64,000 nucleotides of DNA from Escherichia phage HEMP5 (OR424388.1), one strand, 5' to 3'; positions 3,366 to 22,710 are shown, numbered from the stretch's first letter. The notes: generated by a model not told the origin, from the letters alone. Numbers and translations: made by a program.

Positions 3366-4334
3366 TTATTTCAGAAGAGTAACCTCAGCAATTTCTTCCC
3401 AACCGTTTTTGTCGGTCATAATAAAGTCAGCAAGATAAAGAGCAGTACGCAGTGAAACATTGCGTAAACGATTAACATTAACTTTCATCCATGATAATGC
3501 TTTATAAGTTTCTTCATCAGAAAGACCGCGCTTTTGCATCATGTCAGTTGAAAGAATAACATCTTCAACCCTGACCATAATTTCTTCATTAGTGTGAACA
3601 CCCAAATCCAAATAAACCGAGCGGGACACTAATGCTTGTAAATGTGGAGCAAGTTTAGTACCACGGTCTAATTCGCGGTCAATGTCAACGTTTGTGATAA
3701 AAACAATCGTTCCTTTAAATTCAAACTCACGCTCAATGCCTTTTTCTTCTAAGTAAGAAGACGCAGTGCTCCAGCAGACTTTACGGGTCTCTCCGGTGTC
3801 CAGAGCAGCTTTCAGAAGATTAAGAATGTCCATATCAGAGAAAACATCCACATCATCAATCAAAAGGACAGAATTCTCTTCACGATTATTCCAAAGCTGT
3901 TCATAAAGACCAATACCAGAGATTTTACCATTAATGCTTTTATATTCAATGTATCCAATATCATTTGCTTTATTTAAAGCTTTATCTAAAGAATACGTTT
4001 TACCAATGCCTGCCGCACCAGAGATAATTAATGAACGAATGTTTCCGTTAATAATACCATTCGTCATCATTCCCATAACATTAAATCTTTTATTAATGCG
4101 GGTTTTCATATCTTCATACGATTCTTTAACTTCTTCAACTTTTACACCATCATATGAAATGTCTGATTTGTAAACCCAAACACCGCGACGTTTACCGTCA
4201 ATTTCAACAAAAACTTTACCATCTCCTTGTGCATCTACTGGAGCATTATCTGGGAACCATTCGCCTAAGAGCTCAAAAGTTCCAGAGATTTCTTTACCGA
4301 AGTAGATACCCTTATTGATAGTTACAGTTTTCAT
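3366..4334 (-). CDS. AAA+/P-loop ATPase (Walker A GAAGIGKT, Walker B VLLIDDVD), ~322 aa
   Basis: ORF track ORF 3366..4478 trimmed to internal ATG at 4334 (MKTVTINKG...) which has a GGAG RBS and sits downstream of an early promoter; the longer form would read through the promoter and terminator hairpin. Confidence 0.65.
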   Translation of the reverse strand: MKTVTINKGIYFGKEISGTFELLGEWFPDNAPVDAQGDGKVFVEIDGKRRGVWVYKSDISYDGVKVEEVKESYEDMKTRINKRFNVMGMMTNGIINGNIRSLIISGAAGIGKTYSLDKALNKANDIGYIEYKSINGKISGIGLYEQLWNNREENSVLLIDDVDVFSDMDILNLLKAALDTGETRKVCWSTASSYLEEKGIEREFEFKGTIVFITNVDIDRELDRGTKLAPHLQALVSRSVYLDLGVHTNEEIMVRVEDVILSTDMMQKRGLSDEETYKALSWMKVNVNRLRNVSLRTALYLADFIMTDKNGWEEIAEVTLLK

Positions 4335-18456: not shown

Positions 18457-18633
18457 TTATACTCCGGATAGGTTGTAAACTATTTCAACATCGCCTTTTG
18501 CTGCTTTATAACCTTCAGCCCAAGATACAACCGAGTTTTTATCCGAAGATTCAAATTCTGGCATTGGGCTTTCGCCAATGTTCACGCAGTATGTTTCTTC
18601 ATTTTCGTCGAACCAAATAATTAAAGTAGTCAT
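18457..18633 (-). CDS. small hypothetical protein (58 aa; below ORF-track cutoff)
   Basis: manual translation MTTLIIWFDENEETYCVNIGESPMPEFESSDKNSVVSWAEGYKAAKGDVEIVYNLSGV with GGAGAAATAAATG RBS. Confidence 0.35.
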   Translation of the reverse strand: MTTLIIWFDENEETYCVNIGESPMPEFESSDKNSVVSWAEGYKAAKGDVEIVYNLSGV

Positions 18634-18701
18634 TTATTTCTCCGTTTCTGTATTTGTTTTGATAAGTCTATAATAACACCGTCCTTGGTGTTTGTACACA
18701 A

Positions 18702-18977
18702 TTATTTCATATTATTGAAATATTCTTCTGCGATTTCGTCGTTATCATGGTAAACTTTAGAAGACAGTTTAACATAACTTTCAGCAGTGAACATGTTAAT
18801 CACAACCTTTACAGTATACCACTGACCATCTTCATTACCCATTACTGCGTAAGTTTCAAACATCGGATGGTCAGGACCGATAACTTTAATATCATTCACT
18901 GTACGACCAAAATCTTCTGAAACACATTTCATAAAGAAGTTGAACAGTTCACCGTAATTATCCATTTTATTCTCCAA
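18702..18977 (-). CDS. hypothetical protein (91 aa)
   Basis: ORF track; early promoter and GGAGAATAAAATG RBS upstream. Confidence 0.55.
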   Translation of the reverse strand: MENKMDNYGELFNFFMKCVSEDFGRTVNDIKVIGPDHPMFETYAVMGNEDGQWYTVKVVINMFTAESYVKLSSKVYHDNDEIAEEYFNNMK

Positions 18978-19003
18978 GTTGTTTTCTGTATCAGTAGTTG
19001 ATA

Positions 19004-19038
19004 GTTGTATAGTACCATGGAAGAACGGGGATGTAAAC
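19004..19038 (-). promoter_or_regulatory. T4 early-type promoter
   Basis: minus-strand GTTTACATCCCCGTTCTTCCATGGTACTATACAACTATC. Confidence 0.45.
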
Positions 19039-19170
19039 CGTTTTGTGAAAAATTTTTTAAAAAGTTTTGGGGGAATTCTAGGGCAGGGAGGGGCAATTAA
19101 AGGATAGGATAATATATTATAAAGGATAGAAACTAAATGATGCCTAGAGAGGCCCAGAAAGGTCTAGATG

Positions 19171-19200
19171 CCAAAAAGCCCCAACCTTTCGGAAGGGGCT
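19171..19200 (-). terminator. rho-independent terminator closing the tRNA/stable-RNA transcription unit
   Basis: minus-strand AGCCCCTTCCGAAAGGTTGGGGCTTTTTGG (GC stem, GAAA loop, T-run). Confidence 0.55.
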
Positions 19201-19249
19201 AAGCCTTGCGGCAACCTTGTCGGGGTTCCACCTGCTAAGGCAAGTGTTT

Positions 19250-19500
19250 GTACGAAACGCCGGGATTCGAACCCGATTATTAAGTAGTTGACGCTACTCA
19301 ATATTTTTAAAAGGCCATATCTCGACCATATCCGAACGTTCCGTCAAAAACGCTACTCGGCTTACGGCAAAGATATTTCCTCGAATCGATAATTCGGTGC
19401 GCCGTTTCTGCTGTGATATAAGGGGGCATTAACAAAACATAAAGATTTATTAATGCCAGTCCTTAAACAGGGAACATCAGTCCGACGACTTGCCGGTAGC
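19250..19500 (-). ncRNA. candidate phage stable RNA(s) (T4 species 1/2-like) with tRNA-like T-arm and acceptor-like end
   Basis: no ORF; minus-strand contains GGGTTCGAATCCCG T-arm-like element and several hairpins; boundaries not determined. Confidence 0.3.
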
Positions 19501-19505
19501 GACCC

Positions 19506-19580
19506 GGCTTCTTGTTTGGTATCCCGCCCTGGGATCGAACCAGGACCGCAAACTTAGAAGGATCGTATGCTATCCATTAC
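19506..19580 (-). tRNA. tRNA-Arg (anticodon TCT)
   Basis: minus-strand GTCCCGCTGGTGTAATGGATAGCATACGATCCTTCTAAGTTTGCGGTCCTGGTTCGATCCCAGGGCGGGATACCA; cloverleaf with CCA; matches remembered T4 tRNA-Arg. Confidence 0.9.
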
Positions 19581-20225
19581 ACCAGCGGGACGTAATTTAT
19601 TTAAAAGACAAGACAAATCGGAAATCTCATCTTTTTCTAAAACTACCAAATTTTCTAAAGCTTTCCATTTACAAAGATCTCTATCTCTTTTATATCCTTT
19701 GACTTCTATATAAAAATCATAAGTGGGTAAATAAAAATCAGGAAAATAGAGATGTTCTGAACCTTCCCATTCGTAAGGAATTGGCTTTATTTTATTAGTA
19801 TATTTGATATTGTGTTCTTTTAAAAACTTAGCAACTTTTAATTCCCAGGTCCCTTTAAATTTAAACCCGTCAAACTCATATGTTTTTACTCGACCAGAAA
19901 CATTAGAAGCAGAATATGAATCAGGATTATCAAGAACAGCTTGCCGCATTCTTTTAGAATGTGCTTCTTTGCGTTCATTAGACCATACATATCCAGTATT
20001 GGCTTTTCTAAGTTTTTCTCTAGTTTTATCAGAGACTTTTATTTCTTTACCTAGTTCTTTGGCTTTGGTAAATTGATTACTACCTTTAAGACCATAACGA
20101 GGGTTATTAGGGCCGCTCATATCTAATCTATTTGGGTTAGATTTGCACCGTTTTTCATGCTGCTTTAGTGAATTTAAATTTTTACATTCTTTAGAACAAT
20201 ATTGACAAAGCATAATTTTCTCCAT
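19554..20225 (-). CDS. putative nuclease / homing-endonuclease-like protein (223 aa) between tRNA subclusters
   Basis: ORF track; N-terminal Cys/His cluster CQYCSKECKNLNSLKQHEKRC; C-terminal PDF...YIEVKG resembling a PD-(D/E)xK core; last ~9 codons overlap tRNA-Arg. Confidence 0.5.
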   Translation of the reverse strand: MEKIMLCQYCSKECKNLNSLKQHEKRCKSNPNRLDMSGPNNPRYGLKGSNQFTKAKELGKEIKVSDKTREKLRKANTGYVWSNERKEAHSKRMRQAVLDNPDSYSASNVSGRVKTYEFDGFKFKGTWELKVAKFLKEHNIKYTNKIKPIPYEWEGSEHLYFPDFYLPTYDFYIEVKGYKRDRDLCKWKALENLVVLEKDEISDLSCLLNKLRPAGVMDSIRSF

Positions 20226-20282
20226 GAATTTTATATAGATATTTATTCATGGAGAAGTTGACTGCTCTACCTAATCAAAATA

Positions 20283-20356
20283 TGGCCCAGACCAGATTTG
20301 AACTGGTAACCTTTCCCTTATGAGGGGACTGCTGCTAACCATTGAGCTACAGGGCC
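20283..20356 (-). tRNA. tRNA with CAT anticodon (Ile in T4, presumably lysidine-modified)
   Basis: minus-strand GGCCCTGTAGCTCAATGGTTAGC...CTCATAA...GGTTCAAATCTGGTCTGGGCCA. Confidence 0.8.
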
Positions 20357-20361
20357 TTGAT

Positions 20362-20436
20362 ATGCTGATTGACGGAATCGAACCGCCGACCTTCTCATTA
20401 CAAGTGAGTTGCTCTACCTACTAAGCTAAATCAGCA
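20362..20436 (-). tRNA. tRNA-Thr (anticodon TGT)
   Basis: minus-strand TGCTGATTTAGCTTAGTAGGTAGAGCAACTCACTTGTAATGAG...GGTTCGATTCCGTCAATCAGCA. Confidence 0.85.
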
Positions 20437-20440
20437 AAAC

Positions 20441-20531
20441 TGGCGGAGGCGATAGGATTTGAACCTATGAGTCGCCGGAGCGACTGCCGGTTTTCAAGAC
20501 CGGTGCATTAAACCACTCTGCCACGCCTCCA
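20441..20531 (-). tRNA. tRNA-Ser (anticodon TGA, long variable arm)
   Basis: minus-strand TGGAGGCGTGGCAGAGTGGTTTAATGCACCGGTCTTGAAAACCGG...GGTTCAAATCCTATCGCCTCCGCCA. Confidence 0.85.
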
Positions 20532-20532
20532 G

Positions 20533-20606
20533 TCTCCATACAAGGATTTGAACCTTGGACCTCCTGATCCCAAATCAGGCGCTCTACCAAACTGAGCTAC
20601 ACGGAG
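20533..20606 (-). tRNA. tRNA-Pro (anticodon TGG)
   Basis: minus-strand CTCCGTGTAGCTCAGTTTGGTAGAGCGCCTGATTTGGGATCAGG...GGTTCAAATCC. Confidence 0.8.
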
Positions 20607-20615
20607 TAAATTAAA

Positions 20616-20690
<75 letters not shown>

Positions 20691-20695
20691 AAATT

Positions 20696-20782
20696 TGGTG
20701 CGAGAAGTGGGACTCGAACCCACAAGGAAATCATTCCGCAGCATTTTAAGTGCTGTGCCTTTACCAATTTGACCATTCTCGC
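20696..20782 (-). tRNA. tRNA-Leu (anticodon TAA, long variable arm)
   Basis: minus-strand GCGAGAATGGTCAAATTGGTAAAGGCACAGCACTTAAAATGCTG...GGGTTCGAGTCCCACTTCTCGCACCA. Confidence 0.85.
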
Positions 20783-20788
20783 GCTATA

Positions 20789-21421
20789 TTATTTATTACG
20801 TGAAAAAGACTGTTCTATCAATTCTGGACACTTTCGTTCTATCCATTTTCTAGCTTTTTGTGGGCTTATACCTATTATTTTAGCAGCTTTACTAACCCAT
20901 CCAAATTTAGAATAATCGATTTTAACTAATTCTTCGTAAATTTCATCAGTTAAAATCTTTTCATTAATATTTACCAGTAAATGATATAATTTATTATCAT
21001 TAGCAATTTTAATGAATCTTTTATAGTTTCCGCCTTTACTTAAACCTAATGAAGTAATTGCAGATGATATAGTAGCCGAATTTAATAGTGCGTTTAAAAT
21101 TTCTTCATCACTAACATTATAACGCTTTCTATTATTTTTAATATTTTTACCAGCAAAAGTATCAGTTTGCGAATGGCAATTTGGACATAATAATCTTAAA
21201 TTTGATTTAAGATGATTTTTGTTATTTCCATCAATATGGTCTAATTGTAGAACAATATGCTTATTTTGCCATTTTGAAATTTTACAAATTGCGCACTCAT
21301 ATGGAAAAATATTTTCTTTTATTATTTTGTCTTTCAGCTTTCCTGTACTAAAATTTGGATGTTTTCCTTCAAAAATTTCAGCTAATTTAGTATCCATAAT
21401 ATGATTCCCAATTATTAACAA
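20789..21421 (-). CDS. HNH-family homing-endonuclease-like protein (210 aa)
   Basis: CAICKISKW...LQLDHIDGNNKNHLKSNLRLLCPNCHSQTD is a canonical HNH/zinc-finger motif; stop codon 3 nt from tRNA-Leu 5' end. Confidence 0.8.
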   Translation of the reverse strand: MLIIGNHIMDTKLAEIFEGKHPNFSTGKLKDKIIKENIFPYECAICKISKWQNKHIVLQLDHIDGNNKNHLKSNLRLLCPNCHSQTDTFAGKNIKNNRKRYNVSDEEILNALLNSATISSAITSLGLSKGGNYKRFIKIANDNKLYHLLVNINEKILTDEIYEELVKIDYSKFGWVSKAAKIIGISPQKARKWIERKCPELIEQSFSRNK

Positions 21422-21496
21422 AGGCTCTCAAACAAGAACCCTTGATGATAGAGGGTATTAATCAGTGCGGTATGAGTTAATAATAACAAATAATTC

Positions 21497-22012
21497 TTAA
21501 AGCAAATTAAACATTTTAACGGTAGGCAAAACAATTTCTTCTTCTATATAAGAGTATTTAACACTCTCAACTACACGCAAAAAATCATAATCATAATACT
21601 CAGAAGCATTACCTAAAATATTAATAAGTCCTTCAAGCACTTTATTACCATTCACAAAGAATAAGTCAAATACACGTTCTTCATCTTCTTCAGATTTATT
21701 ACCAAGATCAACTTCTATGCGAAAGACCTTTTTAATGAATTCTGGATAAAGCTGGTCTGAGAACAGTCCTTCAACTAAGTATTCATAAATAAAAAGAGAT
21801 TGCTCGCTGAACAAACCATTACCACAATAGCGCTCAATTTTAGTACTAGAATATCTGCTTTTAAACTTCTTTAAAAGATACTGAAATTGTAAGATTTCAT
21901 GCTCTTCTACGCCAAACAGTGTTTTGGTTTTATAGTTGTCACCATCATTTTCCCAGGTAGTGACATCAATTACGTAGCCCTGCGGAATTGTAGTACCTAA
22001 ACAAATATTCAT
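21497..22012 (-). CDS. hypothetical protein (171 aa), acidic
   Basis: ORF track; tightly packed with the next two genes. Confidence 0.55.
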   Translation of the reverse strand: MNICLGTTIPQGYVIDVTTWENDGDNYKTKTLFGVEEHEILQFQYLLKKFKSRYSSTKIERYCGNGLFSEQSLFIYEYLVEGLFSDQLYPEFIKKVFRIEVDLGNKSEEDEERVFDLFFVNGNKVLEGLINILGNASEYYDYDFLRVVESVKYSYIEEEIVLPTVKMFNLL

Positions 22013-22015
22013 TTT

Positions 22016-22312
22016 TCACCACGCTGCGTTAATGTAAGTATATTTAATACATTCAAGACCCAAAGGATTCTTGAAAATATCATATTCAAGAGGACCTTTT
22101 TCTGTTTCAATAAAGAAATCAAAATTTACTGTATTAAATTTACGGTCTTCCTTCACTAATTTAACTTGTGAAGATGAACGGTCAATGTAAACCTTTTCAA
22201 CTTCAAAACATGTTAAAATGCCATAATCATCAATCAAGGCTTTAGCTGCTTCTTGATCATATTTATATCCATTTTCAATGGATGATACTTTAGCATAAAG
22301 AATCATTATCAA
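22016..22312 (-). CDS. hypothetical protein (98 aa)
   Basis: ORF track. Confidence 0.55.
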   Translation of the reverse strand: MIMILYAKVSSIENGYKYDQEAAKALIDDYGILTCFEVEKVYIDRSSSQVKLVKEDRKFNTVNFDFFIETEKGPLEYDIFKNPLGLECIKYTYINAAW

Positions 22313-22710
22313 CCTTCATCAACAACAGTATGCGTATTGGCATTTACGATTTGCCACCAATCAAAGCGATTAGAACCATACATCGGTTTGTTTTCATTTT
22401 CTTTGATAATGTCACGGAGTTCATCTTCAGAGAATGCTTTAGCGATTAAATCGGTATACCCACCACGTGGATAATAATTATCACCTGCAAACAAAAGGAA
22501 ATTTACCTTCCCGGAAGGAACATACGCTTCCTTAGGATACTTGTTTCCTGCGTGGTCAACCACTTCAATATAACGGTAAGGAATATCGGTTCTTTCAACC
22601 CATTGCCATGCCGCTGCAGGGGAATCGAAAGCATCTACACCTAAACGATTATCTTCATCTTTAGACGGATTATTTTCGTAATCCGCATATACATAATATT
22701 CAACGTTCAT
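22309..22710 (-). CDS. hypothetical protein (133 aa)
   Basis: ORF track; 4-nt overlap with downstream gene. Confidence 0.55.
   Translation of the reverse strand: MNVEYYVYADYENNPSKDEDNRLGVDAFDSPAAAWQWVERTDIPYRYIEVVDHAGNKYPKEAYVPSGKVNFLLFAGDNYYPRGGYTDLIAKAFSEDELRDIIKENENKPMYGSNRFDWWQIVNANTHTVVDEG

What the first reader, a model, noticed from the sequence alone, without database searches (positions are those of the whole stretch)
20696..21421. tRNA cluster lacks tRNA-Gln; an HNH endonuclease gene abuts tRNA-Leu
I could fold seven tRNAs (Leu, Gly, Pro, Ser, Thr, Ile and Arg), which matches the T4 set except for Gln. In T4, tRNA-Gln is the promoter-proximal member of subcluster I. Here the HNH ORF stop codon (20789..20791) lies 6 nt from the 5' end of tRNA-Leu, and no tRNA-like structure is present in the adjacent spacers. 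This looks like a homing-endonuclease-associated replacement of one tRNA gene, which would alter the codon-supplementation repertoire of the phage.
Basis: partly seen in the sequence, partly recalled or inferred. Interest (0 to 1): 0.55.

Follow-up and report, generated by a model that had tools for sequence, protein, structure and literature searches.

The report
HNH endonuclease gene replaces phage tRNA-Gln
In this T4-like phage the first gene of the tRNA operon, tRNA-Gln, has been swapped almost base-for-base for a selfish HNH endonuclease gene; about one in eight sequenced T4-type phages share this allele, so it is a tidy but fairly ordinary case of homing-endonuclease turnover.

Summary
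On the minus strand the window carries seven T4-type tRNAs (Leu, Gly, Pro, Ser, Thr, Ile-CAU, Arg) and no tRNA-Gln. A 202-codon HNH ORF (20789-21397) ends 6 nt before tRNA-Leu. Alignment to T4 and to the nearest Gln-bearing relative (F25) gives sharp breakpoints. Homology runs through the T4 tRNA promoter and leader and 7 nt into tRNA-Gln. It stops there and resumes 2 nt before the tRNA-Gln 3' end. A 618-bp, low-GC cassette that is almost pure ORF therefore replaces 64 nt of tRNA-Gln.

In GenBank phages the locus is dimorphic: about 63 records have HNH and about 448 have Gln. The 60 HNH records listed have no T4-type Gln anywhere, and one complete genome scanned has none.

The protein resembles T5 F-TflIV, which also lies in a tRNA cluster, and is under purifying selection. 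Homologues 57-68% identical occupy the same position in other T4-like lineages, one directly after an intact tRNA-Gln.

The best reading is a free-standing homing endonuclease expressed from the tRNA promoter. Cleavage activity, target and homing are untested. This is a new member of a known kind, of modest interest.

The parts
21480..21504 (-). MotA-box-type middle promoter (TGCTTTA, 12-nt spacer, TATTAT), shared with the T4 tRNA leader
   Evidence: The pattern TGCTTYA-N11-13-TANNNT matches here. The window has 11 such sites against 2.3 expected by chance. The site lies inside the 113-nt block that is 96.5% identical to T4 upstream of tRNA-Gln. Promoter function is inferred from the published MotA-box consensus (own knowledge).
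21404..21516 (-). tRNA-operon promoter and leader, conserved with T4 (T4 72636..72524), ending with the first 7 nt of tRNA-Gln
   Evidence: blastn gives 96.5% identity over 113 nt to T4 and 95.6% to F25.
21404..21410 (-). TGGGAAT: the 5' acceptor-stem strand of tRNA-Gln, left as a remnant or used as a microhomology. Its GGGA lies 8 nt before the ATG and is a possible Shine-Dalgarno sequence for the HNH gene
   Evidence: Alignment of the window, T4 and a51. Sequence. The Shine-Dalgarno role is inference.
20786..21403 (-). 618-bp HNH cassette that replaces nt 8-71 of tRNA-Gln. It holds 6 nt before the ATG and 3 nt after the stop. GC is 25.9% against 35.6% for the window
   Evidence: Breakpoints. 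Composition.
20789..21397 (-). HNH endonuclease ORF (202 aa plus stop), F-TflIV-like, with a C-terminal helix-turn-helix-like region
   Evidence: phrog_14736 and phrog_10822, both HNH endonuclease families. Weak Pfam HNH hit. 35% identity to T5 hegA/F-TflIV, E=2e-22. Invariant Cys, His and Asn residues. pN/pS about 0.05.
20696..20782 (-). tRNA-Leu(UAA), now the first tRNA of the operon, 6 nt after the HNH stop codon
   Evidence: 97.8% identity to T4 across Leu to Ile.
20617..20690 (-). tRNA-Gly(UCC)
20532..20606 (-). tRNA-Pro(UGG)
20441..20530 (-). tRNA-Ser(UGA)
20362..20436 (-). tRNA-Thr(UGU)
20283..20356 (-). tRNA with CAU anticodon. ARAGORN calls it Met. It is the homologue of the gene annotated tRNA-Ile in T4
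19554..20225 (-). Second, unrelated endonuclease ORF (223 aa) in the slot that T4 gives to segB. Its reading frame runs 38 nt into tRNA-Arg
   Evidence: phrog_15137 endonuclease, E=1e-40. Weak Pfam Phage_endo_I hit. Junction sequence. The same gene is present in F25.
19517..19591 (-). tRNA-Arg(UCU), T4 subcluster II

Best explanation
The window comes from a T4-like phage (Tequatrovirus). The promoter-proximal gene of its tRNA operon, tRNA-Gln(UUG), has been replaced by a free-standing HNH homing-endonuclease gene.

SHOWN:
- A 618-bp AT-rich cassette that is almost nothing but a 202-codon ORF occupies the place of nt 8-71 of tRNA-Gln.
- The T4 promoter/leader lies upstream, and tRNA-Leu through tRNA-Ile downstream is T4-like at 96-98% identity.
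- The locus is dimorphic among sequenced relatives, about 12% HNH and about 86% Gln, and the two states exclude each other.
- The cassette is 97-100% identical across phages whose neighbouring genes differ by up to 17%.
- The ORF is intact everywhere and under purifying selection.
- Its closest characterised homologue is T5 F-TflIV, another HNH gene inside a phage tRNA cluster.

INFERRED:
- The gene is transcribed from the MotA-type middle promoter that drives tRNA-Gln in T4, as the first cistron of an mRNA-tRNA co-transcript.
- It is translated from a weak Shine-Dalgarno sequence (GGGA) supplied by the tRNA-Gln remnant.
- Its mRNA is cut 6 nt after the stop codon when RNase P matures tRNA-Leu. 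This would keep expression low, as has been proposed for segB and the T5 F-Tfl genes.
- In a mixed infection the enzyme nicks or cuts the HNH-less allele. The flanks are the same in both alleles, so the only sequence unique to the HNH-less allele is the tRNA-Gln body. The target should therefore overlap tRNA-Gln or its junction with tRNA-Leu.
- Repair from the HNH-bearing genome converts Gln to HNH. The converted allele is immune because the target is gone.

The cost to the phage is loss of the tRNA that reads its preferred Gln codon, CAA.
For: Anatomy: 7 tRNAs and no Gln; the ORF and the 6-nt gap.

Breakpoints: window 21516..21404 matches T4 72636..72524, and window 20785..20275 matches T4 72459..71952. 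The junctions are identical against F25 and are shown base by base.

Dimorphism: 63 records cover at least 80% of the HNH junction query, and 448 cover at least 80% of the T4 Gln-Leu junction.

Mutual exclusion: with a chimeric Gln+HNH query, no record covers both parts. All 60 listed HNH records have a single place, and there are 497 places in 496 records.

Gln absent genome-wide: T4_ev151. The annotations of teqhad and a51 show 10 tRNAs and no Gln.

Mixed backbones:
- The HNH allele occurs with or without the 171-aa ORF upstream.
- Downstream it occurs with segB, with another endonuclease, or with Tyr-Asn-His tRNAs.
- The window's nearest 24-kb relatives include both alleles.

Foreign composition: 25.9% GC against 35.6%.

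HNH identity. T5 hegA lies next to tRNA-Ile2.

Selection: 8 synonymous against 2 nonsynonymous differences at most within Tequatrovirus; dN/dS about 0.1-0.25 between lineages.

Promoter pattern.

Precedent: endonuclease genes in tRNA clusters and their down-regulation by tRNA processing (PMC2330249).
Against: - No cleavage, homing or transcript data exist for this protein, and no paper on it was found.
- The Pfam HNH score is below the gathering cut-off (17.3 against 21.4 bits).
- The 7-nt 'remnant' could be a microhomology rather than a relic.
- In contig L011 a 68%-identical homologue lies 14 nt after an intact tRNA-Gln and has its own Shine-Dalgarno sequence. Insertion and tRNA loss need not have been one event, and the target may be the Gln/downstream junction rather than the tRNA body.
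- Homologues at the syntenic site in other T4-like lineages are as conserved as, or more conserved than, most neighbouring genes. That is unusual for a purely selfish element and hints at a retained function.
- The leader fold is not significantly stable (z = -1.2).
- This phage's own genome outside the 64-kb window could not be scanned.
Confidence: 0.7

Rival explanations
1. Two-step origin. The HNH gene first inserted between tRNA-Gln and tRNA-Leu, which is the arrangement seen in contig L011. Later a single deletion of about 75 nt removed the tRNA-Gln body and the gene's own ribosome-binding site, fusing the 7-nt stub to the ORF. The endonuclease did not itself displace the tRNA.
For: L011 has tRNA-Gln(ttg) at 3911-3986, then 14 nt containing AAAGGGGAG, then the HNH ORF. 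Its tRNA-Gln is clearly homologous to T4's (local alignment score 60 against a shuffle mean of 15.5). One deletion needs only one illegitimate junction.
Against: No Tequatrovirus record has Gln and HNH together. No record covers both parts of the chimeric query, and the 60 listed HNH records each have a single place. The intermediate is therefore unobserved in this genus. The right-hand junction shares only 2 nt with the tRNA-Gln 3' end, which neither supports nor excludes this reading.
Confidence: 0.25
2. Reverse polarity. The HNH-first arrangement is ancestral for this operon, and the T4-type allele arose when tRNA-Gln replaced the HNH gene.
For: HNH homologues at 57-68% identity sit at the syntenic position in three other T4-like lineages. 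They are at least as conserved as most of the neighbours compared: gp3, gp1 and trna.2 score lower and only 57B scores higher. The two largest tRNA clusters seen (L014, L015) lack Gln.
Against: - tRNA-Gln is also old. It is present in L011 and in the distant phage S16 (H159).
- The HNH allele retains 7 nt of the tRNA-Gln acceptor stem.
- The cassette's GC content is 10 points below the genome's.
- HNH alleles within Tequatrovirus differ by 3% or less, while flanking genes differ by up to 17%. That pattern fits recent spread.
- The Gln allele is seven times commoner.
Confidence: 0.1
3. The HNH protein is kept because it benefits the phage. It might exclude competitors' tRNA regions, or promote recombination and amplification of the tRNA locus as reported for SegB. 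On this reading it is not, or not only, a selfish homing element.
For: Long-term conservation at one locus across genera, with dN/dS well below 1. SegB drives preferential inheritance of the T4 tRNA region (PMC2330249). SegB is also reported to amplify the tRNA-SegB locus to evade Septu (PMC13096335).
Against: - Only about 12% of Tequatroviruses carry the gene.
- It removes a tRNA rather than protecting one.
- Purifying selection is also expected for an actively homing element.
- There are no functional data.
Confidence: 0.2

Closest known systems
[quoted passage not shown] 2008, PMC2330249)
   Same: Both are free-standing endonuclease genes inside the T-even tRNA cluster. Each is present in some close relatives and absent in others, and gain of each is associated with loss of the competitor's tRNA genes. 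Each ORF ends a few nt before a tRNA, so tRNA processing should cut the mRNA.
   Different: The nuclease fold differs (HNH against GIY-YIG), and so does the slot (head of the operon against the Ile/Arg gap). Here the gene sits exactly in place of one tRNA gene. SegB's activity, 27-bp target (the T-psi-C stem-loop) and homing have been shown experimentally, whereas nothing has been tested for this protein.
Phage T5 F-TflIV (hegA), an HNH endonuclease in the T5 tRNA region (Akulenko et al. 2004, cited in PMC2330249 and PMC5714182; original paper not readable here)
   Same: It is the closest characterised homologue. Identity is 35% over 170 aligned positions (about 84% of the window protein) with E=2e-22, covering both the HNH core and the C-terminal HTH-like segment. 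It also lies immediately next to a tRNA gene inside a phage tRNA cluster. Some GenBank records of the window's allele are already labelled 'H-N-H endonuclease F-TflIV'.
   Different: The phage family differs (Demerecviridae). T5 hegA has a 55-aa N-terminal extension and lacks the middle segment of about 25 aa. It follows a tRNA rather than replacing one.
SegH/Hef replacing mobC/mobE in T4-related phages (Sandegren et al. 2005, cited in PMC2988022)
   Same: The pattern is the same: alternative, mutually exclusive occupants of one slot among T4-like genomes, one of them a free-standing homing endonuclease gene.
   Different: In those cases one endonuclease gene replaces another. Here an endonuclease gene replaces a functional tRNA gene.

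Membership tests
HNH / His-Me finger endonucleases (Pfam PF01844 type) | Beta-beta-alpha-metal core with the catalytic His of a D-H pair, conserved Asn residues and a terminal His, framed by two CxxC zinc pairs | tested here: met
   C35, C38, H54, N58, N66, C71, C74 and H75 are invariant in the alignment of the window protein, three 57-68% homologues and T5 F-TflIV.
HNH / His-Me finger endonucleases (Pfam PF01844 type) | Score above the curated family threshold | tested here: inconclusive
   The Pfam HNH score is 17.3 bits against a cut-off of 21.4. PHROG HNH families match strongly: phrog_10822 at E=2.5e-29 and phrog_14736 at E=5e-124. Homologues P0003 and P0004 carry precomputed PF01844 hits. 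No PDB sequence match below E=0.38.
F-TflIV-like HNH endonucleases of phage tRNA clusters | Sequence homology to T5 hegA over both the nuclease core and the C-terminal DNA-binding segment | tested here: met
   BLASTP gives 35% identity with E=2e-22, aligning residues 16-184 of 202.
F-TflIV-like HNH endonucleases of phage tRNA clusters | Gene located within or next to a phage tRNA gene cluster | tested here: met
   In the window the gene is 6 nt upstream of tRNA-Leu. T5 hegA is 24 nt after tRNA-Ile2. The homologues in L011-L015 lie at the head of tRNA clusters.
F-TflIV-like HNH endonucleases of phage tRNA clusters | Site-specific endonuclease activity | not testable with these tools
   This needs purified protein and cleavage mapping.
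Free-standing homing endonuclease genes of T-even phages | Presence/absence polymorphism at one locus among closely related genomes with conserved flanks | tested here: met
   63 HNH records and 448 Gln records have flanks 96-100% identical. The two states exclude each other.
Free-standing homing endonuclease genes of T-even phages | Intact ORF maintained by selection, with a composition distinct from the host genome | tested here: met
   All 8 alleles examined are full length. pN/pS is about 0.05. GC is 25.9% against 35.6%.
Free-standing homing endonuclease genes of T-even phages | The enzyme cleaves the allele lacking the gene, and the allele carrying it is resistant | not testable with these tools
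   This rests on inference only: the tRNA-Gln body is the one local sequence unique to the HNH-less allele.
Free-standing homing endonuclease genes of T-even phages | Super-Mendelian inheritance in mixed infection that depends on the nuclease | not testable with these tools
   This needs phage crosses.
T4-type tRNA gene cluster | Gene order Leu-Gly-Pro-Ser-Thr-Ile ... Arg with high identity to T4, behind the T4 leader | tested here: met
   Identity to T4 is 97.8% over Leu to Ile, 93% over Arg to rnaC, and 96.5% over the leader.
T4-type tRNA gene cluster | tRNA-Gln as the promoter-proximal member | tested here: not met
   There is no tRNA-Gln in the window. Only its first 7 nt and last 2 nt remain.
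Intron-encoded homing endonuclease (group I intron in a tRNA gene) | ORF embedded in a self-splicing intron that interrupts, but does not destroy, the host gene | tested here: not met
   Rfam finds no intron family at E<=1 in 18500-22500. The cassette holds only 9 non-coding nt, and 64 nt of the tRNA are missing.

The most novel reading that the evidence does not exclude
This is one branch of an old lineage of HNH endonucleases that lives specifically at the head of tRNA operons in T4-like phages. It is found in at least four lineages at 57-68% identity, and it is as conserved as, or more conserved than, most of its neighbours. On this reading the lineage targets tRNA-gene DNA. It has persisted either by continual homing or because, like SegB, it has been co-opted to drive inheritance or amplification of the tRNA (anti-defence) locus. 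Its expression would be tied to tRNA maturation through RNase P cleavage of an mRNA-tRNA co-transcript.
Probability: 0.15. Interest if true: 0.6.

Novelty: new member of a known kind. Interest (0 to 1): 0.3.

Why it matters
The finding adds a second, mechanistically distinct endonuclease to the T-even tRNA region, which is the textbook example of marker exclusion driven by homing endonucleases. It also gives a clean natural case in which a selfish gene has deleted a functional tRNA from about one in eight T4-type phages.

Phage tRNAs are now viewed as counter-defence factors as well as codon supplements. An element that removes or reshuffles them therefore affects host range and phage-cocktail design. 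The sharply defined alleles make the homing and target-site predictions directly testable with existing phages such as T4, a51, teqhad and ACG-C40.

Still, the allele already sits in dozens of public genomes annotated as 'HNH endonuclease', and the principle is well established. The advance is incremental.

Tried and rejected
1. IMG/VR scans with the conserved leader 23-mer and with the HNH protein found nothing. The survey therefore rests on GenBank phages and Logan contigs.

2. BYEP02's HNH locus is 76 nt longer, which suggested a retained tRNA. It is a tandem duplication of the promoter/leader, with no Gln.

3. I considered whether the extra 171-aa ORF (21497-22012) is part of the HNH cassette. 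It is not. It occurs in 234 records, including the Gln-allele phages T2, Sf22 and RB33, and it is separated from the HNH gene by the T4-like leader.

4. I considered whether the contigs L012/L013 share the same 'leader + TGGGAAT + HNH' junction, which would make the replacement ancient. The similarity (TAATTGG-AAT) is not beyond chance: 141 and 282 of 500 shuffles reach the observed score. I dropped the idea.

5. A hairpin sequestering the ribosome-binding site in the leader was not supported. The fold has z = -1.2, which is not significant.

6. The sigma-70 and terminator scan gives no convincing site in the leader and no intrinsic terminator between the promoter and tRNA-Leu. The MotA-box pattern search was more informative.

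7. The PDB sequence search gave no usable hit. NCBIfam gave only sub-threshold HNH-containing families such as IscB and ZorE.

8. Literature searches for this gene, for T4_ev151 and for F-TflIV found no description of the allele. The original F-TflIV paper is not held.

9. No GenBank phage carries the L011-type or L012-type homologue.

Full report
OBSERVATION

ARAGORN over the whole 64-kb window finds seven tRNA genes, all on the minus strand:
- Leu(UAA) 20696-20782
- Gly 20617-20690
- Pro 20532-20606
- Ser 20441-20530
- Thr 20362-20436
- a CAU-anticodon tRNA 20283-20356
- Arg(UCU) 19517-19591

An Rfam scan of 18500-22500 at E<=1 returns the same seven and nothing else tRNA-like. ARAGORN labels the CAU tRNA Met, but it is the homologue of the gene that T4's record annotates as tRNA-Ile.

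The ORF listed as 20789-21421 starts at a TTG. The ATG at 21397 is the start used in relatives' annotations, and the N-termini of distant homologues align to it. That start gives 202 aa.

Reading the sequence, the TAA stop is at 20789-20791 and the 5' end of tRNA-Leu is at 20782, with TATAGC between them. In T4 the cluster begins trna.2, then 97 nt, then tRNA-Gln, then 1 nt, then tRNA-Leu. The only additions are the strand and the likely start codon.

BREAKPOINTS

A blastn comparison of the window with T4 shows the following:
- Window 22780..22041 matches T4 trna.3/trna.2 at 83%.
- Window 21516..21404 matches T4 72636..72524 at 96.5%.
- Window 20785..20275 matches T4 72459..71952 at 97.8%.
- Window 19599..19142 matches T4 71255..70799 at 93%.

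T4 tRNA-Gln is 72458..72530 on the minus strand. Homology therefore runs through the intergenic leader and the first 7 nt of tRNA-Gln (TGGGAAT). It then stops and resumes at the last 2 nt of tRNA-Gln. The base-by-base alignment confirms this.

The inserted segment, window 21403..20786, is 618 bp. It holds 6 nt, then the 609-nt ORF including its stop, then 3 nt. It replaces 64 nt of tRNA-Gln.

The window's nearest overall relative is vB_Eco_F25 (about 96% over 24 kb), which carries tRNA-Gln. The junctions against it are the same. The cassette has 25.9% GC against 35.6% for the window.

The 171-aa ORF just upstream (21497-22012) is absent from T4 but is a separate indel. It occurs in 234 records, including the Gln-bearing T2, Sf22 and RB33. 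The T4-like leader separates it from the HNH gene.

DISTRIBUTION

Of about 520-530 phage records that hold this locus:
- 63 cover at least 80% of an HNH-junction query. The rest match only the two flanks, with a record span of 174-177 nt, which is the size of the tRNA-Gln allele.
- 448 cover at least 80% of the T4 leader-Gln-Leu junction.

These counts include GenBank/RefSeq duplicates.

I also ran a chimeric query made of T4 tRNA-Gln joined to the first 162 nt of the HNH gene. No record contains both parts. All 60 listed HNH-bearing records have a single matching place, so they carry no T4-type tRNA-Gln elsewhere at megablast sensitivity. There are 497 places in 496 records, and I did not identify the one record with two places.

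I fetched the complete genome of T4_ev151, whose HNH protein is 100% identical to the window's. ARAGORN finds only the same seven tRNAs there. The tRNA clusters of teqhad and a51 are annotated with ten tRNAs and no Gln.

MOBILITY AND SELECTION

The cassette is 97-100% identical among Tequatroviruses. It sits on varied backgrounds:
- with the 171-aa ORF (a51, teqhad, the window) or without it (T4_ev151, BYEP02)
- followed by a T4-type segB, by a different endonuclease, or by extra Tyr-Asn-His tRNAs

The window itself is a mosaic. It is a51-like from 23200 to 20337 (97.2%) and F25-like from 20785 to 19173 (97.4%). Its closest 24-kb relatives include both alleles.

Among five Tequatrovirus alleles the differences are at most 8 synonymous against 2 nonsynonymous, which gives pN/pS of about 0.05.

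THE PROTEIN

Pfam gives only a sub-threshold HNH hit. PHROG HNH families match strongly. The two CxxC pairs, the D-H catalytic pair, the Asn residues and the terminal His are invariant in an alignment with homologues.

The nearest characterised relative is T5 hegA/F-TflIV, at 35% identity and E=2e-22, including the C-terminal HTH-like segment. That gene lies 24 nt after tRNA-Ile2 inside the T5 tRNA cluster. Other weak homologues in T5-like and Gordonia phages also overlap tRNA annotations.

HOMOLOGUES ELSEWHERE

A search of 5.8 billion proteins found full-length relatives at 68%, 58% and 57% identity. All lie on uncultured T4-like contigs at the syntenic position: gp2, gp3, gp1, 57A, 57B, trna.x ORFs, HNH, then tRNAs.

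In L011 an intact tRNA-Gln(UUG), homologous to T4's, lies 14 nt upstream of the HNH ORF. That ORF has its own AAAGGGGAG ribosome-binding site. In L014 and L015 the HNH gene heads clusters of 14 and 16 tRNAs, none of them Gln.

HNH identity to the window (57-67%) equals or exceeds that of most flanking genes: gp3 46-51%, gp1 45-54%, trna.2 43%. Only 57B scores higher, at 68-76%. dN/dS between lineages is about 0.1-0.25, with dS saturated.

The family is therefore an old and conserved occupant of this locus, and it can coexist with tRNA-Gln.

I tested whether L012/L013 share the window's junction. The similarity is within chance, so I make no claim about it.

HOW IT MOST LIKELY WORKS

The leader retained from T4 contains a MotA-box pattern, TGCTTTA-N12-TATTAT, at 21480-21504(-). 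Such patterns are five-fold over-represented in the window. No terminator-like site lies between it and tRNA-Leu.

I infer four steps:
1. The HNH gene is the first cistron of the tRNA operon transcript.
2. It is translated from a weak GGGA in the tRNA-Gln stub, 8 nt before the ATG.
3. It is separated from the tRNAs by RNase P cleavage 6 nt after its stop. The same expression-limiting logic was proposed for segB and the T5 F-Tfl genes (PMC2330249).
4. The flanks of HNH and Gln alleles can be identical: some Gln records are 100% identical over the flanks. The only local sequence unique to the HNH-less allele is therefore the tRNA-Gln body. A homing enzyme acting here must recognise something that overlaps it or its junction with the next gene. 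The L011 arrangement points to the 3' end or junction.

Cleavage, homing and transcription are all inferred.

ALTERNATIVES

- A two-step origin: insertion after tRNA-Gln as in L011, then a deletion of about 75 nt. It is plausible, but the intermediate is unobserved in Tequatrovirus.
- Reverse polarity, with HNH ancestral. This is unlikely given the acceptor-stem stub, the low GC, the shallow diversity of the HNH allele and the presence of tRNA-Gln in distant lineages.
- A beneficial or domesticated role, in the manner recently reported for SegB (PMC13096335). This cannot be excluded.

COMPARISON AND NOVELTY

The finding works like the known free-standing homing endonucleases of T-even phages, especially SegB in the same cluster. 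In sequence it belongs with T5 F-TflIV. It is not an intron-encoded endonuclease.

The allele is already present in dozens of public genomes, annotated as 'HNH endonuclease' and sometimes as 'F-TflIV'. I found no paper that describes it or notes that it replaces tRNA-Gln.

It is a new member of a known kind, of modest interest.

Noticed in passing
window 19554-20225 (-), overlapping tRNA-Arg 19517-19591: A 223-aa endonuclease ORF (phrog_15137; weak Pfam Phage_endo_I, so PD-(D/E)XK-like and not GIY-YIG) occupies the slot that T4 gives to segB. T4 homology resumes exactly at segB's stop codon. This ORF has no stop there and reads 38 nt into tRNA-Arg, ending at a TAA in the anticodon loop (..TCC TTC TAA). 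RNase P processing would leave a stop-less mRNA. F25 has the same arrangement.
   Followed up: partly
window 21497-22012 (-): A 171-aa ORF of unknown function (phrog_2290) is inserted between trna.2 and the tRNA promoter. Its stop codon overlaps the MotA box. It is absent from T4 but present in 234 records including T2, and it is independent of the HNH/Gln dimorphism.
   Followed up: partly
window ~19252-19515 (-): The region downstream of tRNA-Arg is 93% identical to the T4 small stable RNAs rnaD and rnaC (species 2 and 1). Rfam has no family for them, so nothing was reported there.
   Followed up: no
L009 (Escherichia phage BYEP02) 1154-1318: There is a tandem duplication of about 82 nt of the tRNA promoter/leader immediately upstream of the HNH gene. 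The Gly-Pro and Ser-Thr spacers are also unusually long (about 85 nt). This could be a real promoter duplication or an assembly artefact.
   Followed up: partly
L010 (vB_Eco_F25) 3480-3549: ARAGORN finds no tRNA-Thr between Ser and Ile(CAU) in F25, only a 70-nt gap where T4 and the window have it. This may be a degraded tRNA-Thr. The record's own tRNA coordinates are also offset from the real genes.
   Followed up: no
L011 4604-5009; L012 and L013 4610-4740: Non-coding stretches follow the HNH genes of the uncultured T4-like contigs. L011 has about 400 nt of comparatively GC-rich sequence. L012 and L013 share about 130 nt that are nearly identical even though their neighbouring ORFs differ. 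There is no Rfam hit at E<=0.01. These may be unannotated small RNAs.
   Followed up: no
phage collection hits H206, H207, H209, H215; L008 (T5): Weak homologues of this HNH protein in T5-like and Gordonia phages repeatedly overlap or abut tRNA annotations (tRNA-Thr, Leu, Glu, Ile2). This hints that the HNH clade is generally associated with phage tRNA clusters. The evidence is anecdotal and was not tested statistically.
   Followed up: no
window, whole: The MotA-box-type middle-promoter pattern TGCTTYA-N11-13-TANNNT occurs 11 times in the window against 2.3 expected by chance. No shuffle reaches that count. This is consistent with a T4-type middle-transcription programme.
   Followed up: no
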